DNA of 64,000 nt, taken from NCBI RefSeq assembly GCF_054482595.1, contig NZ_CM137008.1; one strand, 5' to 3'. Below are positions 21,001 to 24,000 of the stretch, piece after piece. The position numbers were made by a program. Every line of letters starts with the position of its first letter. The stretch's first letter is position 1.

Positions 21001-24000
21001 CTTTCGTGGTGAGGGCAAACAGGCGCTGGGGATTTTCTGCTTCGAGGAACGCGCTGTAGTCATGATGACGCGTAACGGCGGTAAACTCGTGATAGTCCAG
21101 CCCCGCGCGGCGCAGGCGCTTATCGTCCCAGGCAAATCCCATCGGTTCGATGATATGCAGACGAAAGCCGGTATTAGCGCAAAGACGGATGATGTTGCCA
21201 GTATTTGGCGGAATTTCTGGTTCGTAAAGTACGATGTTTAGCATACTGCCCCCTTAGTGCGGGGGCAGGATAGCAGAAAATTGGTGAACCGTGCGGCCTT
21301 TTCCCCTCACCCCGGCCCTCCCCCTGTCTCTTGATCAGGAGATCTGATCAAGAGACAGCTCCCTGAGGGAGAGGGTTAGGGGGAGGGGGCGCAAACGACT
21401 ATGCCGCATTCCCTTTCGCCATGGGAGCCAGTGCCGCAGGCAACTCTTTACCCAGCCCCTGCACCAGCGAATCTTGCGTAATTTCGCTGATCGATTTCGC
21501 GCCAGTCAGCGTCATCGCCACTTTCATCTCTTTTTCGATCAGATTTAGCAGGTTAGCTACACCCGCCTGGCCCGCTGTTGCCAGCGCATACAGGAAAGCA
21601 CGACCCAGCAGTACGGTGTCGGCACCGAGCGCAATCATACGCACGACATCAAGCCCGTTACGAATTCCGCTATCCGCCAGAATGGCTATATCACCTTTCA
21701 CCGCATCTGCAATAGCGGGCAACGCACGAGCGGAAGAGAGTACACCGTCCAGCTGGCGGCCACCGTGGTTAGAAACTACAATCCCATCAGCACCAAAACG
21801 TACTGCATCGCGCGCATCTTCCGGATCGAGGATCCCTTTGATCACCATCGGGCCATCCCAGAAATCGCGGATCCACTCAAGGTCTTTCCATGAGATGGAC
21901 GGATCGAAGTTATTCCCCAGCCAGCCGATGTAATCTTCCAGTCCGGTCGGTTTGCCGAGGTAAGCCGAAATATTTCCTAAATCATGCGGACGACCGTTCA
22001 GGCCCACATCCCACGCCCATTGCGGATGCGTCACCGCCTGCAAATAGCGGCGCATTGCCGCGTTCGGGCCGCTCATTCCAGAATGCGCATCACGATAACG
22101 CGCTCCCGGTGTCGGCATATCCACGGTGAAAACCAGCGTCGAACAACCCGCTGCTTTTGCTCGCTCCAGCGCGTTACGCATAAAGCCGCGATCGCGCAGT
22201 ACATAAAGCTGGAACCACATTGGGCGCTTGATGGCTGGCGCGACTTCTTCAATCGGGCAAACGGAAACCGTCGAGAGAGTAAACGGAATGCCATGCGCAT
22301 CCGCCGCTTTGGCTGCCTGAACTTCGCCGCGTCGCGCATACATGCCACACAAACCTACCGGACCTAGCGCCACCGGCATCGACAATTTCTCATTAAACAG
22401 CGTCGTTTCCAGGCTTAAGTCGGACATGTTTTTCAGAATACGCTGGCGCAGCGCCACTTCTGACAAATCTTCCACGTTGCGGCGCAGCGTGTATTCAGAA
22501 TATGCACCCCCATCCATATAGTGGAACAGGAACGGCGGCAGAATGCGTTGCGCTGCGGCGCGATAATCGCTGGCTGCGGAAATAATCATGCGTTTTTCTC
22601 CCTCGAATGCTCATTATGCTCACCGGGCAGGCGGGTAATCCGTGCGTGGCGAGCCTGATCTTCATCGAATCGTTTCATGGTGGTGTGAACAAAACTAAGG
22701 TGCGCCATCATTGCTTTACGCGCCCCGTCGGCATCACCAGCAAAAATGGCGTCAATGACAGCCTGATGTTGTTCGGTCAGTTGTGAAAAAACCGGTGGCA
22801 CCAGATACATCCGCTGACGGCTATGCTTCACTGAGGATTGCAGGACATCGAAGAAACCGCGCATGGTTTGCAGCAGCACGATGTTATGTGAGGCTTCGGC
22901 AATCGCCAGATGAAAACGAACGTCCGCTTGTGAGGCGATATCCGGGTCTTCACTTAGCGTTGCTTCAAAGCAAAGCTGAATCTTTTCTTTGTCGCCAGGT
23001 GTGGCGCGCATTGCCGCATGCCATGCGGTGCTGGCTTCAATGGCGTAGCGGGCTTCCAGAATATCGAAACTGTAATCCGGATCATCGGCCATCAGCGTTT
23101 TTAGCGGCTGGACGATGTTTTGCTCCGACCATGTGTCATGACGCCAGCGAATAAACGTCCCGCCGCCGCGTCGACTGAGCAGCACGCCTTCGCTCACCAG
23201 TTTTGCCAGCGCCTCGCGCAGTGAATTACGCGATACGCCGAGTTGCATCGCCAGTTGACGTTCAGCGGGCAACTTCATGCCCGCTTCCAGGTTTTTTTCA
23301 TCAATCAGCGCCCGCACACGATCGGCAACCTCGTCTGACAGGCGTCTGGGTAAAACAATCATTAAGGAATCATCCACGTTAAGACATAGGCCTGAAGCGT
23401 GGTGATCACGCCCACCATACAGGTGAAGATCAGGCTGTGTTTGACAGTAAAGCGGAACAAATCAGACTCTTTGCCCACCAGGCCTACCGCCGCACAGGCG
23501 ATAGCGATAGATTGCGGGGAGATCATTTTACCGGTGACGCCACCGGTGGTATTGGCGGCAACCAGCAACAGATCAGAGACGCCAATTTGTTGTGCTGCGG
23601 TGGCTTGCAGCGCGGCGAACAGGGCGTTAGATGAGGTATCCGACCCAGTCAGGAATACCCCCAGCCAGCCGAGGAACGGCGAGAAGAAGGTGAATGCATG
23701 ACCGGTGTGCGCCAGTGCCAGCGCCAGTGTTGATGACAGTCCGGAATAGTTCGAAATAAAGGCGAATGCCAGCACCATACCGATGGAGTAGATGGGCAGA
23801 GCCAGTTCTTTCAGCGTGCTGCCGAAGGTGCTGATAGCGTCAGACGGTTTCATCTTCAGCCAGACAACCGAGAGCAGCGCAGCAAACAGAATGGCGGTGC
23901 CAGTGGCAGAGAACCAGTCGAACTTAAACACGGCGGCATAGGCTGTAGCCTCGCTGACTACTGGCGGCATACGGGCAACCAGTTTATCGAGGTACGGCAC

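What the first reader, a model, noticed from the sequence alone, without database searches (positions are those of the whole stretch)
21296..21395. GC-rich palindrome with arms resembling the Tn5/IS50 inside end
Between lldD and trmL there is a roughly 100-bp element: a C-rich arm (cccctcaccccggccctccccc), CTGTCTCTTGATCA, GGAGATC, TGATCAAGAGACAG, then a G-rich arm (…gggggagggggcg). The 14-bp perfect inverted repeats match the first 14 nt of the Tn5 inside end (CTGTCTCTTGATCAGATCT, from memory). No transposase gene is nearby. It may be a MITE-like or transposase-binding relic, and it could also act as an RNA hairpin terminating lldPRD.
Basis: seen in the sequence. Interest (0 to 1): 0.45.

Follow-up and report, generated by a model that had tools for sequence, protein, structure and literature searches.

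The report
Dead ISEc13 end inside Box C
The palindrome between lldD and trmL is the last 33-35 bases of a dead Tn5-like insertion sequence (ISEc13), stuck between two known GC-rich "Box C" repeats; it is an ordinary genomic fossil, but it points to an insertion sequence that aims at hairpin loops.

Summary
Window 21324-21358 is a perfect 15+5+15 palindrome, and its minus-strand arm matches the Tn5/IS50 inside end 19/19.

It is not IS50. 33 of the 35 bases are the exact right terminus of ISEc13, an IS50-group IS4-family element. They include the last seven transposase codons and the stop codon.

The C-rich and G-rich arms are truncated copies of the Box C (PIT/TMECO) repeats #18 and #17 that K-12 has at this spot.

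The allele occurs in 791 of 5426 complete E. coli genomes, including REL606 and HS. K-12-type genomes instead have an unrelated spacer of about 59 bp between intact repeats. No genome keeps more of the IS at this site.

Intact ISEc13 copies at 8 independent loci all sit in loops of C-arm/G-arm hairpins, one of them a genuine Box C, with perfect 8, 9 or 11-bp duplications.

The same 35-mer, without any IS body, recurs at 12 more loci in Serratia, Salmonella, Budvicia, Escherichia and metagenomes, never with a clean duplication. It is therefore a stereotyped decay scar, not a demonstrated MITE.

No U-tract follows the hairpin, so it is probably not an intrinsic terminator.

The parts
21303..21323 (.). 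Truncated Box C / PIT / TMECO repeat, the K-12 #18 type in reverse-complement orientation (third-strand and G-arm part only).
   Evidence: CCCCTCACCCCGGCCCTCCCC(C) matches the first 22 nt of the reverse complement of TMECO #18 at 21/22 (TMECO list from PMC4666352). The K-12-type allele L001 holds the whole repeat.
21324..21358 (+). 35-bp perfect palindrome, the ISEc13 terminal scar. Bases 21326-21358 are the last 33 bp of ISEc13. Bases 21324-21347 read LSLDQEI*, against the transposase C-terminus KSLDQEI*.
   Evidence: It is identical to the termini of intact 1550-bp ISEc13 copies.
21340..21358 (-). 19-bp transposase-binding end sequence, identical to the IS50 inside end and to the ISEc13 right end.
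   Evidence: 19/19 match and the only hit in the window. Tn5 sequence checked. The ISEc13 right end is shown.
21324..21338 (+). Inverted copy of the end (the pseudo-end), matching the end sequence at 15/19. In intact ISEc13 it begins AAG rather than CTG.
   Evidence: Joining the first 9 nt of the ISEc13 left end to the internal GTCTCTT repeat reproduces this 35-mer exactly.
21333..21349 (.). Three GATC (Dam) sites within 17 bp, at 21333, 21341 and 21346.
   Evidence: That Dam methylation of inside-end GATC sites inhibits IS50 transposase binding is established knowledge about Tn5 and was not tested here.
21359..21389 (+). Box C / PIT / TMECO repeat of the K-12 #17 type, lacking its first 4 nt. 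It starts 10 nt after the lldD stop codon.
   Evidence: 29/30 identity to the last 30 nt of TMECO #17. Kaplan 2016 places this motif 11 bp after lldD in K-12.

Best explanation
**What it is.** It is a fossil of an insertion sequence, not a working device.

**History proposed.**
1. An ISEc13 element inserted into the hairpin of Box C repeat #17, just downstream of lldD, in an ancestor of about 15% of today's sequenced E. coli. ISEc13 is 1550 bp and belongs to the IS50 group of the IS4 family. Its transposase aligns over its whole length with the Tn5 transposase. Insertion into such hairpins is what intact ISEc13 copies do.
2. The element then collapsed to its terminal hairpin. Intact ISEc13 carries an inverted copy of its own end 7 nt inside its right end, giving a 13-bp stem.
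3. A deletion between the 7-nt direct repeat GTCTCTT in the left end (CTGTCTCTTATAC...) and in that internal copy (AAGTCTCTTGATC...) leaves exactly the 35-bp perfect palindrome seen here.
4. A further deletion between the 9-bp repeats CCCTCTCCC of the two inverted Box C copies removed the 59-bp spacer and parts of both repeats. The left target-duplication copy was trimmed to CTCC(CTG).

**Present state.** The result is an 87-bp near-palindrome that is transcribed at the 3' end of lldD. It most likely does nothing specific today. At most it acts as a stable 3' stem-loop on lldPRD mRNA and as a residual binding site for ISEc13 transposase.

**Shown:** the identity of the core, the identity of the arms, the polymorphism, and the hairpin-loop targeting.
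**Inferred:** the order and mechanism of the deletions, and the absence of a function.
For: 1. **Identity of the core.** Bases 21326-21358 equal the terminal 33 bp of ISEc13 in E. coli plasmids and chromosomes, where they follow ...EGYLVMKSLDQEI* of the transposase. RefSeq annotation (PGAP) labels intact copies 'IS4-like element ISEc13 family transposase'.
2. **Family of the transposase.** The protein scores 510.7 bits against NF033590. It aligns over residues 6-453 with the Tn5 transposase structures 1MUH and 4DM0 at E = 5e-83.
3. **Identity of the arms.** They are TMECO/Box C #18 (21/22) and #17 (29/30). The K-12-type allele holds both repeats intact.
4. **Polymorphism.**
   - At least six alleles exist at this spacer.
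   - The scar allele is in 791 of 5426 genomes.
   - It shows secondary variants, which indicates age: a T>C change, a 1-nt deletion and a 10-nt deletion.
5. **Targeting.**
   - 11 intact 1550-bp copies at 8 distinct loci all have perfect 8, 9 or 11-bp duplications centred on the loop of a C-arm/G-arm hairpin. One is a genuine Box C next to uvrB.
   - The 11-bp duplication was verified against an empty site in E2348/69.
   - Reconstructed empty targets fold at a mean of -19.0 kcal/mol, against -10.1 for random 52-mers (Mann-Whitney p = 3e-5).
6. **The deletion model.** The proposed left-end/internal-repeat deletion reproduces the 35-mer base for base.
7. **Duplication trace.** In the cleanest allele (L013), CTCCCTG flanks the remnant on both sides, consistent with a partly retained duplication.
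8. **Recurrence.**
   - The same 35-mer without an IS body recurs at 12 other loci, mostly inside Box C-like CCCTCTCCC-loop-GGGAGAGGG repeats.
   - It occurs alongside other decay products of 38, 81 and 281 bp.
Against: - No genome among 5426 carries a full or longer ISEc13 at this junction, and the best matches to the reconstructed uninterrupted fused Box C were all interrupted. The intermediates are therefore hypothetical.
- The flanks do not show a full 8-11-bp duplication. Only 4 bp (CTCC) flank the 35-mer, or 7 bp (CTCCCTG) flank a 32-mer, so extra small deletions must be assumed.
- At other loci the two duplication copies keep the direct frame but have reverse-complemented loop bases. 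In one case the 5-nt centre of the 35-mer is flipped relative to the parental IS. The simple slippage model does not predict this.
- A Rahnella derivative has a left end CTGACTC. Slippage would not then give the CTGTCTC seen in the 35-mers from Rahnella-like contigs.
- A fold-back template switch at the native hairpin is an alternative route to the same product.
- The absence of a function is an assumption.
Confidence: 0.8

Rival explanations
1. The 35-mer is a minimal MITE. It would be a non-autonomous mini-element with two usable ends (19/19 and 15/19), mobilised in trans by ISEc13-type transposase and inserted as such into Box C hairpins, here and in other Enterobacterales.
For: - The identical 35-mer, always starting CTG rather than the AAG of the intact IS, occurs at 13 loci in at least 6 taxa.
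- Serratia silvae has five copies plus one 81-bp remnant, and no intact IS with this end.
- The copies lie in the same kind of target as intact ISEc13.
- A degenerate copy with 5 mismatches exists in Rahnella.
- A left end of CTGACTC in Rahnella argues against the slippage origin there.
Against: - None of 13 loci has a clean direct duplication of 7 nt or more, whereas 11 of 11 intact insertions do.
- In E. coli the 35-mer is at one locus only in all rows sampled, although ISEc13 is common and active there.
- No clean empty site exists at this locus.
- The two 19-bp end sequences would overlap within 35 bp, and a 35-bp duplex cannot bend to place both termini in one Tn5-type synaptic dimer. This is an inference from the Tn5 synaptic-complex structure and was not tested.
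Confidence: 0.1
2. It is a scar of Tn5/IS50 itself, for example from laboratory Tn5 mutagenesis or from a natural IS50.
For: 19/19 identity to the IS50 inside end.
Against: - Beyond base 19, IS50 reads TGATCC..., whereas the window reads CCTGATCAAGAGAC, which is the ISEc13 sequence.
- The allele is present in 791 natural isolates from many hosts and countries, including REL606 and HS.
Confidence: 0.01
3. The whole 87-bp hairpin is a selected RNA or DNA element, whatever its origin. It could be a terminator or attenuator between lldPRD and trmL, an mRNA 3'-end stabiliser, or a SeqA/Dam-sensitive site.
For: - The hairpin is very stable on the transcribed strand: -63 kcal/mol for 109 nt, z = -4.9.
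- It starts 10 nt after the lldD stop codon.
- It has three GATC sites within 17 bp.
- The allele has persisted with only minor variants in about 15% of genomes.
Against: - No U-tract follows the hairpin. The downstream RNA reads GGGGAAAAGGCCGCACGG.
- The scan gives only one weak terminator-like site and no promoter-like site.
- No Rfam family reaches threshold. The best score is 28.5 bits against a gathering score of 80, for miRNA-precursor models that simply like long hairpins.
- PIT/Box C elements are reported to have no promoter or terminator activity.
- Other E. coli manage with quite different spacers, including 77-bp and 102-bp spacers without any of these elements.
Confidence: 0.07

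Closest known systems
ISEc13 (IS4 family, IS50 group), right terminus
   Same: 33/33 identity to the terminal bases, including the last transposase codons and the stop codon. The target type is the same as for intact copies: the loop of a C-arm/G-arm hairpin or Box C.
   Different: Only 33-35 of 1550 bp remain. The first two bases are CT instead of AA, which turns the native 13-bp stem into a perfect 15-bp stem. There is no complete target duplication.
IS50 inside end of Tn5
   Same: Identical 19-bp end sequence, CTGTCTCTTGATCAGATCT, with its GATC sites. The transposases are homologous over their full length (E = 5e-83).
   Different: The sequence diverges from base 20. IS50 has no inverted copy of its end next to the inside end. 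Tn5 makes 9-bp duplications with weak target preference (established knowledge), whereas ISEc13 shows 8, 9 or 11 bp in hairpin loops.
'Nearly precise excision' remnant of Tn10 (Foster, Kleckner and co-workers, 1981; from memory, not read here)
   Same: An IS4-family element is reduced by recombination between short repeats near its ends to a short palindromic scar that stays at the insertion site.
   Different: Tn10 leaves about 50 bp through 24-bp repeats in the inverted IS10 modules of a composite transposon. Here a single IS collapses through a 7-nt repeat, or by fold-back at its terminal hairpin, to 35 bp. The mechanism here is inferred, not demonstrated.
Box C / PIT / TMECO / HPGQ repeats of E. 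coli (Bachellier 1999; Holder 2015, PMC4666352; Kaplan 2016, PMC5100583)
   Same: The C-rich and G-rich arms are copies #18 and #17 of this family. Holder et al. already noted a deletion polymorphism at the 17/18 pair that creates a stem-loop (their Fig. S6D).
   Different: The central 35 bp are not part of Box C. Holder et al. state they never found transposase remnants at TMECO sites, so this locus and the uvrB-adjacent insertion are counter-examples.
Insertion sequences that target palindromic repeats (IS1397 and ISKpn1 in BIMEs; ISPa11, ISPpu9/10 and the IS4-family ISRm22 in REPs; PMC1525189)
   Same: An IS inserts specifically into the loop or centre of intergenic palindromic repeats.
   Different: The IS group (IS50) and the repeat family (Box C and terminator-like C/G hairpins) differ. 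The duplication length varies with the target.
MITEs
   Same: Terminal inverted repeats derived from an IS, no coding capacity, intergenic location, and folds as a hairpin.
   Different: It is far shorter than known MITEs, has no clean target duplication, occupies a single locus in E. coli, and shows no evidence of movement.

Membership tests
ISEc13 remnant (solo end) | Sequence identity to the IS terminus beyond the generic 19-bp end. | tested here: met
   33/33 identity to the termini of intact and partial ISEc13 copies.
ISEc13 remnant (solo end) | Contains the 3' end of the transposase reading frame, which runs into the end. | tested here: met
   Bases 21324-21347 translate to LSLDQEI*, against KSLDQEI* in the intact protein.
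ISEc13 remnant (solo end) | Lies in the kind of target that the intact element uses. | tested here: met
   At all 8 loci with intact copies the IS sits in a hairpin loop, including one Box C. Here it sits in the hairpin of Box C #17.
ISEc13 remnant (solo end) | Target-site duplication on both sides. | tested here: inconclusive
   Only CTCC (4 bp) flanks the 35-mer, or CTCCCTG (7 bp) flanks a 32-mer, in allele L013. Intact copies give 8-11 bp.
ISEc13 remnant (solo end) | A related genome with the full element at the same site. | tested here: not met
   0 of 5426 genomes keep more than 33 bp of the IS at this junction, in the orientation tested.
IS50 / Tn5 | 19-bp inside-end sequence. | tested here: met
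   19/19. Tn5 sequence confirmed from PMC9241598.
IS50 / Tn5 | IS50 sequence continuing inside the end (…AGATCTTGATCC…). | tested here: not met
   The window reads …AGATCTCCTGATCAAG….
MITE | Terminal inverted repeats recognisable by a transposase. | tested here: met
   15-bp perfect arms. One arm matches the end sequence 19/19 and the other 15/19.
MITE | Direct target-site duplication of the length made by the parent transposase. | tested here: not met
   None of 13 loci has a clean direct repeat of 7 nt or more.
MITE | Several copies per genome, or presence/absence polymorphism with a clean empty site. | tested here: not met
   In E. coli the 35-mer is at this locus only in the rows sampled, and no empty site was found. 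Serratia silvae, however, has five copies.
Box C / PIT / TMECO (the arms) | Match to the CCCTC(T/G)CCC-loop-GGGAGAGGG-(TTA/CCG)-GGGTGAGGG consensus at the K-12 position. | tested here: met
   29/30 to #17 and 21/22 to the reverse complement of #18. Both copies are truncated.
Box C / PIT / TMECO (the arms) | All three sequence blocks needed for an intrastrand triplex are present. | tested here: inconclusive
   The #17 copy keeps loop, G-arm and third block but loses 4 nt of the C-arm. The #18 copy loses its C-arm and loop. Triplex formation cannot be tested here.
Intrinsic (Rho-independent) terminator | GC-rich stem-loop directly followed by a U-tract on the transcribed strand. | tested here: not met
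   The stem-loop is present at -63 kcal/mol, but the downstream RNA is GGGGAAAAGGCC. The scan finds only one weak internal site.

The most novel reading that the evidence does not exclude
ISEc13-type transposases are close relatives of the supposedly near-random Tn5 transposase. They may read DNA structure and insert into the loops of C-arm/G-arm hairpins (Box C/TMECO repeats and terminators), with a duplication whose length (8-11 bp) depends on the target. Their collapse to a stereotyped 35-bp palindromic scar would then be a general and so far unrecognised cause of the unexplained instability of Box C/TMECO sites across Enterobacterales. In the strongest version, the 35-mer is still a substrate of the transposase, which would make it the smallest known MITE.
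Probability: 0.3. Interest if true: 0.6.

Novelty: new member of a known kind. Interest (0 to 1): 0.36.

Why it matters
For this locus it matters little. It is a neutral-looking scar that distinguishes B/HS-type from K-12-type E. coli in the lldD-trmL spacer.

The side results are more useful.

1. A Tn5-family element shows strong hairpin-loop specificity. That could be exploited or studied structurally, because the Tn5 transposase is the workhorse of tagmentation and is valued for low target bias.
2. The work gives a concrete mobile-element explanation for part of the "genomic instability" that Holder et al. (2015) measured at Box C/TMECO repeats. They reported finding no transposase remnants there.
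3. The recurrent 35-bp perfect palindrome, whose duplication loops are reverse-complemented, is a natural data set for studying palindrome-driven template switching.

Tried and rejected
- **Rfam scan of 20700-22000.** Nothing reached threshold. The only hits were miRNA-precursor and H/ACA models at 19-28 bits against gathering scores of 64-96, which is an artefact of any long hairpin.
- **Promoter and terminator scan.** No promoter-like site and only one weak terminator-like site inside the element.
- **Search for the reconstructed uninterrupted fused Box C at this locus.** All the best hits are two-piece matches with 39-70 extra bases. None is uninterrupted.
- **Search for a genome that keeps more of ISEc13 at the lldD-side junction.** 0 of 5426. 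The opposite orientation was not searched.
- **Orthologous empty sites for the Escherichia sp. 35-mers.** The flanks of L038 are absent from E. coli. L037 lies downstream of folA, but there the E. coli sequence diverges immediately (a ccdAB cassette), so no comparison was possible.
- **Metagenome scan for 35-mers not preceded by C.** Only 3 contigs and 2 loci.
- **Exact-protein look-up of the ybaY-copy transposase.** It returned one locus only. The DCE7-copy look-up was the productive one.
- **Unannotated 33-mers in E. coli (H147, H232, H236).** These are larger ISEc13 remnants cut by other IS elements, not 35-mers.
- **Literature.**
  - Eight papers mention ISEc13 only in lists.
  - Reznikoff et al. 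2004, on IS50-family transposases, is not held.
  - No held paper contains the 35-mer, and the Holder supplements do not contain it.
- **Pure fold-back palindromisation model.** It predicts perfectly symmetric flanks. The observed flanks are offset by 1-5 nt, so on its own it is rejected as the general explanation.
- **Pure slippage model.** It predicts identical direct duplications, which are not seen either. Neither sub-mechanism is settled.
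Full report
**1. The observation**

- C-rich stretch: 21303-21323.
- Core: CTGTCTCTTGATCAG-GAGAT-CTGATCAAGAGACAG at 21324-21358.
- G-rich stretch: 21359-21389.

The core arms are 15 bp and perfectly complementary. The outer arms are 78% complementary.

The minus strand 21358..21340 matches the IS50 inside end CTGTCTCTTGATCAGATCT 19/19. It is the only hit at up to 3 mismatches in the window, against 0.01 expected. I checked the Tn5 sequence against a published primer for the Tn5 PaphII region that reads …CCTGTCTCTTGATCAGATCTTGATCC.

The element lies between trmL (20771-21244, minus) and lldD (21399-22589, minus). It starts 10 nt after the lldD stop codon.

**2. What the core is**

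A search of 5426 complete E. coli genomes with the 35-mer gave two classes of hit.
- 35/35 matches lie in unannotated DNA. Every one examined (REL606, 19AR0254, 2012EL-2448, ws5-3) is at the lldD-trmL locus.
- 33/35 matches lie at the 3' end of genes annotated "IS4 family transposase".

In those elements the 33 bases follow …GGTTACCTGGTGATGAA and encode the C-terminus …EGYLVMKSLDQEI*. The stop codon lies inside the terminal repeat.

Intact copies have these properties.
- They are 1550 bp long and encode a 457-aa transposase.
- RefSeq annotation (PGAP) calls it "IS4-like element ISEc13 family transposase".
- The protein scores 510.7 bits on NF033590.
- It aligns over its whole length with the Tn5 transposase structures at E = 5e-83.
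- The left end is CTGTCTCTTATACACAAAT, which resembles the Tn5 outside end as I recall it. The right end is identical to the IS50 inside end.

Identity of the window to IS50 stops at base 19, while identity to ISEc13 runs for 33 bases. The source is therefore ISEc13, not Tn5.

The palindrome is largely native to ISEc13. Its right end is preceded by an inverted copy of itself (AAGTCTCTTGATCAGG), giving a 13-bp stem. In the window the AA is CT, which makes the stem 15 bp.

**3. What the arms are**

The arms are two members of the Box C family. The same family is also called PIT, TMECO and HPGQ. Holder et al. 2015 list 23 copies in K-12, and two of them lie at this locus.
- #17: CCCTCTCCCTGAGGGAGAGGGTTAGGGTGAGGGG.
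- #18: CCCTCGCCCCTCCGGGGAGAGGGCCGGGGTGAGGGG.

Kaplan et al. 2016 list the same two copies between lldD and trmL.

A K-12-type allele (L001) contains both copies exactly, in inverted orientation, with a 59-bp spacer.

The window keeps 21/22 of the outer part of #18 and 29/30 of the last 30 nt of #17. Relative to K-12, about 80 bp are replaced by the 35-mer. The replaced stretch comprises the inner half of #18, the spacer, and 4 nt of #17.

**4. Population picture**

The spacer is highly polymorphic.
- Two short spacers of 77 and 102 bp lack these repeats.
- Three "long" K-12-like variants differ by 11-12-bp indels.
- The scar allele makes up the remainder.

The scar allele occurs in 791 of 5426 genomes, including REL606 and HS. 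It has sub-variants.
- L013 has CCCTCTCC next to the scar.
- The window has a T>C change there.
- REL606 has a 1-nt deletion.
- ws5-3 has lost 10 nt on the right.

No genome keeps more than 33 bp of the IS at the lldD-side junction. The best matches to the reconstructed uninterrupted fused Box C all turned out to be interrupted.

Holder et al. noticed a deletion at the 17/18 pair that "creates a stem-loop" (their Fig. S6D). They state that no transposase remnants were ever found at TMECO sites. The 35-mer does not occur in their text or in the held supplements.

**5. How ISEc13 chooses targets**

An exact-protein look-up returned 10 intact copies. With L042 this makes 11 copies at 8 distinct loci.

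Every copy has a perfect direct duplication.
- 8 bp at three loci.
- 9 bp at four loci.
- 11 bp at one locus.

In every case the duplication is the loop, plus a few stem bases, of a hairpin with a C-rich 5' arm and a G-rich 3' arm.
- Two targets look like intrinsic terminators.
- One target, next to uvrB, is a genuine Box C: CCCCTCGCCCCT[CCGGAGAG]AGGGTTAGGGTGAGGGG.

The 11-bp case was verified against an empty site in E2348/69.

Reconstructed empty sites fold at a mean of -19.0 kcal/mol, against -10.1 for random 52-mers from the window (p = 3e-5).

Partial copies also abut Box C-like sequence. Insertion into the hairpin of Box C #17 is therefore the expected behaviour of this element.

**6. 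The same scar elsewhere**

An exact scan of one genome per species for the 33-mer found 23 loci. The hosts were Budvicia, Serratia, Rahnella, Salmonella diarizonae, E. whittamii and an Escherichia sp.

- About half are ends of full copies.
- Ten are the 35-mer alone, always beginning CTG. They are mostly flanked on both sides by CCCTCTCCC-loop-GGG(AG) sequences.
- A metagenome scan added two more loci.
- Other decay products also occur:
  - an 81-bp remnant (L024);
  - a 38-bp remnant (L036);
  - a 281-bp derivative with both ends (L031);
  - a degenerate 35-mer with 5 mismatches.

None of the 13 35-mer loci has a clean direct duplication of 7 nt or more. This is in sharp contrast to the intact copies.

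**7. Mechanism (inferred)**

The left end of ISEc13 (CTGTCTCTTATAC…) and the internal inverted copy (AAGTCTCTTGATC…) share GTCTCTT in direct orientation. A deletion between these repeats yields exactly the 35-mer. It also explains why the scar always starts at the position of a true terminus. This resembles the "nearly precise excision" of Tn10, which I cite from memory.

Flanking Box C arms would bring the IS ends together in single-stranded DNA and so favour such slippage.

For the window, two further short-repeat deletions must be assumed.
- One lies between the CCCTCTCCC repeats of the two inverted Box C copies.
- A second, small deletion removes most of the left duplication copy. CTCCCTG remains on both sides in L013.

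An alternative route is fold-back synthesis at the native 13-bp hairpin. It also converts AA to CT. It would fit loci where the resident left end is CTGACTC. It predicts symmetric flanks, however, and these are not seen.

Some features are explained by neither route.
- In L025, L028 and L044 the two duplication copies keep the direct frame, but their loop bases are reverse complements (ACA against TGT).
- In Salmonella (L035) the centre of the 35-mer is flipped relative to the same insertion in an E. coli plasmid (L006).

Template-switch "correction" of quasi-palindromes would produce both features. This is a hypothesis.

**8. Function**

On the transcribed (minus) strand the element forms a hairpin of -63 kcal/mol. 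It is followed by GGGGAAAAGGCC, not a U-tract.

- The consensus scan gives no convincing terminator or promoter.
- No Rfam family matches.
- PIT elements were reported to lack terminator and promoter activity.
- Other E. coli carry very different spacers.

I therefore regard the element as a neutral scar. It may stabilise the lldD 3' end, and it retains one intact transposase-binding site with three Dam sites. None of this was tested.

**9. Verdict**

"IS50-like relic" holds. "Two Tn5 inside ends", "MITE" and "terminator" are not supported.
- It is a new example of a known kind of thing, a solo-end IS scar within a known repeat family.
- The more interesting by-products are the hairpin-loop specificity of a Tn5-family IS and the recurrent 35-bp scar in Box C-type repeats. 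As far as the held literature shows, neither has been described.

Noticed in passing
L039/L050, L042, L049, L051, L052, L054, L057, L058 (intact ISEc13 copies in E. coli): All intact ISEc13 copies sit in the loop of a hairpin with a C-rich 5' arm and a G-rich 3' arm. They have perfect target duplications of variable length (8, 9 or 11 bp). This is unusual for an IS50-group element and is not described in the held literature.
   Followed up: yes
L025, L028, L044 (35-mer flanks); L035 versus L006 and L020: The two duplication copies beside the 35-mer keep the direct frame, but their loop bases are reverse complements of each other. In L035 the 5-nt centre of the 35-mer is flipped relative to the same insertion carrying the full IS. 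This suggests palindrome-driven template switching.
   Followed up: partly
window 21243-21271 (minus strand; trmL start codon at 21244..21242): A conserved 8-bp GC hairpin (CTGCCCCC/GGGGGCAG) sits immediately upstream of the trmL start codon. Its 3' arm contains the only Shine-Dalgarno-like bases (AAGGGGG). It is invariant in all six spacer alleles, including the shortest, and may control trmL translation.
   Followed up: no
L001, L002, L014, L015 (K-12-type spacers; equivalent to window 21320-21360): The K-12-type paired Box C alleles differ among themselves by a 12-bp indel (CCCTCTCCCCGG, flanked by CCCCGG repeats) and by an 11-bp indel inside repeat #18. The locus therefore mutates by short-repeat slippage even without the IS.
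   Followed up: partly
L054, L006, L020, L035, L059, L060: One particular target hairpin, (A)AAACCCCCAGCCTAGCTGGGGGTT, flanks ISEc13 ends or scars in E. coli chromosomes and plasmids, Salmonella diarizonae and Budvicia. Either it is an exceptionally hot target or it travels with a larger mobile element.
   Followed up: no
L016-L023 (Budvicia aquatica contig ends): At least seven ISEc13-like ends lie at contig ends, so the element is multicopy there. The flanks are GTTGAAAAACGGGG or its inverse GTTTTTCAACGGGG, meaning the IS sits in both orientations of a different palindromic repeat family.
   Followed up: no
L031:892-1172 (Rahnella perminowiae): A 281-bp internally deleted derivative has both ends (left end CTGACTCTTATACAC) and a near-perfect 8-bp duplication (GCGAAGGG/GCGAAGGT). 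It is a more conventional MITE-like derivative of the same IS family.
   Followed up: partly
window 20727-20762 (minus strand): A weak match to naRNA4 (REP-derived nucleoid-associated RNA) scores 23.7 bits against a gathering score of 59.5. It lies in the short spacer just beyond the 3' end of trmL and is probably a single REP unit.
   Followed up: no
L040:600-760 (E. coli MCJCHV-1, downstream of folA) versus L037: Downstream of folA this E. coli strain carries a ccdA/ccdB toxin-antitoxin pair. An Escherichia sp. carries a 35-mer scar in a small hairpin at the same position. This is another variable spot next to a conserved gene.
   Followed up: no
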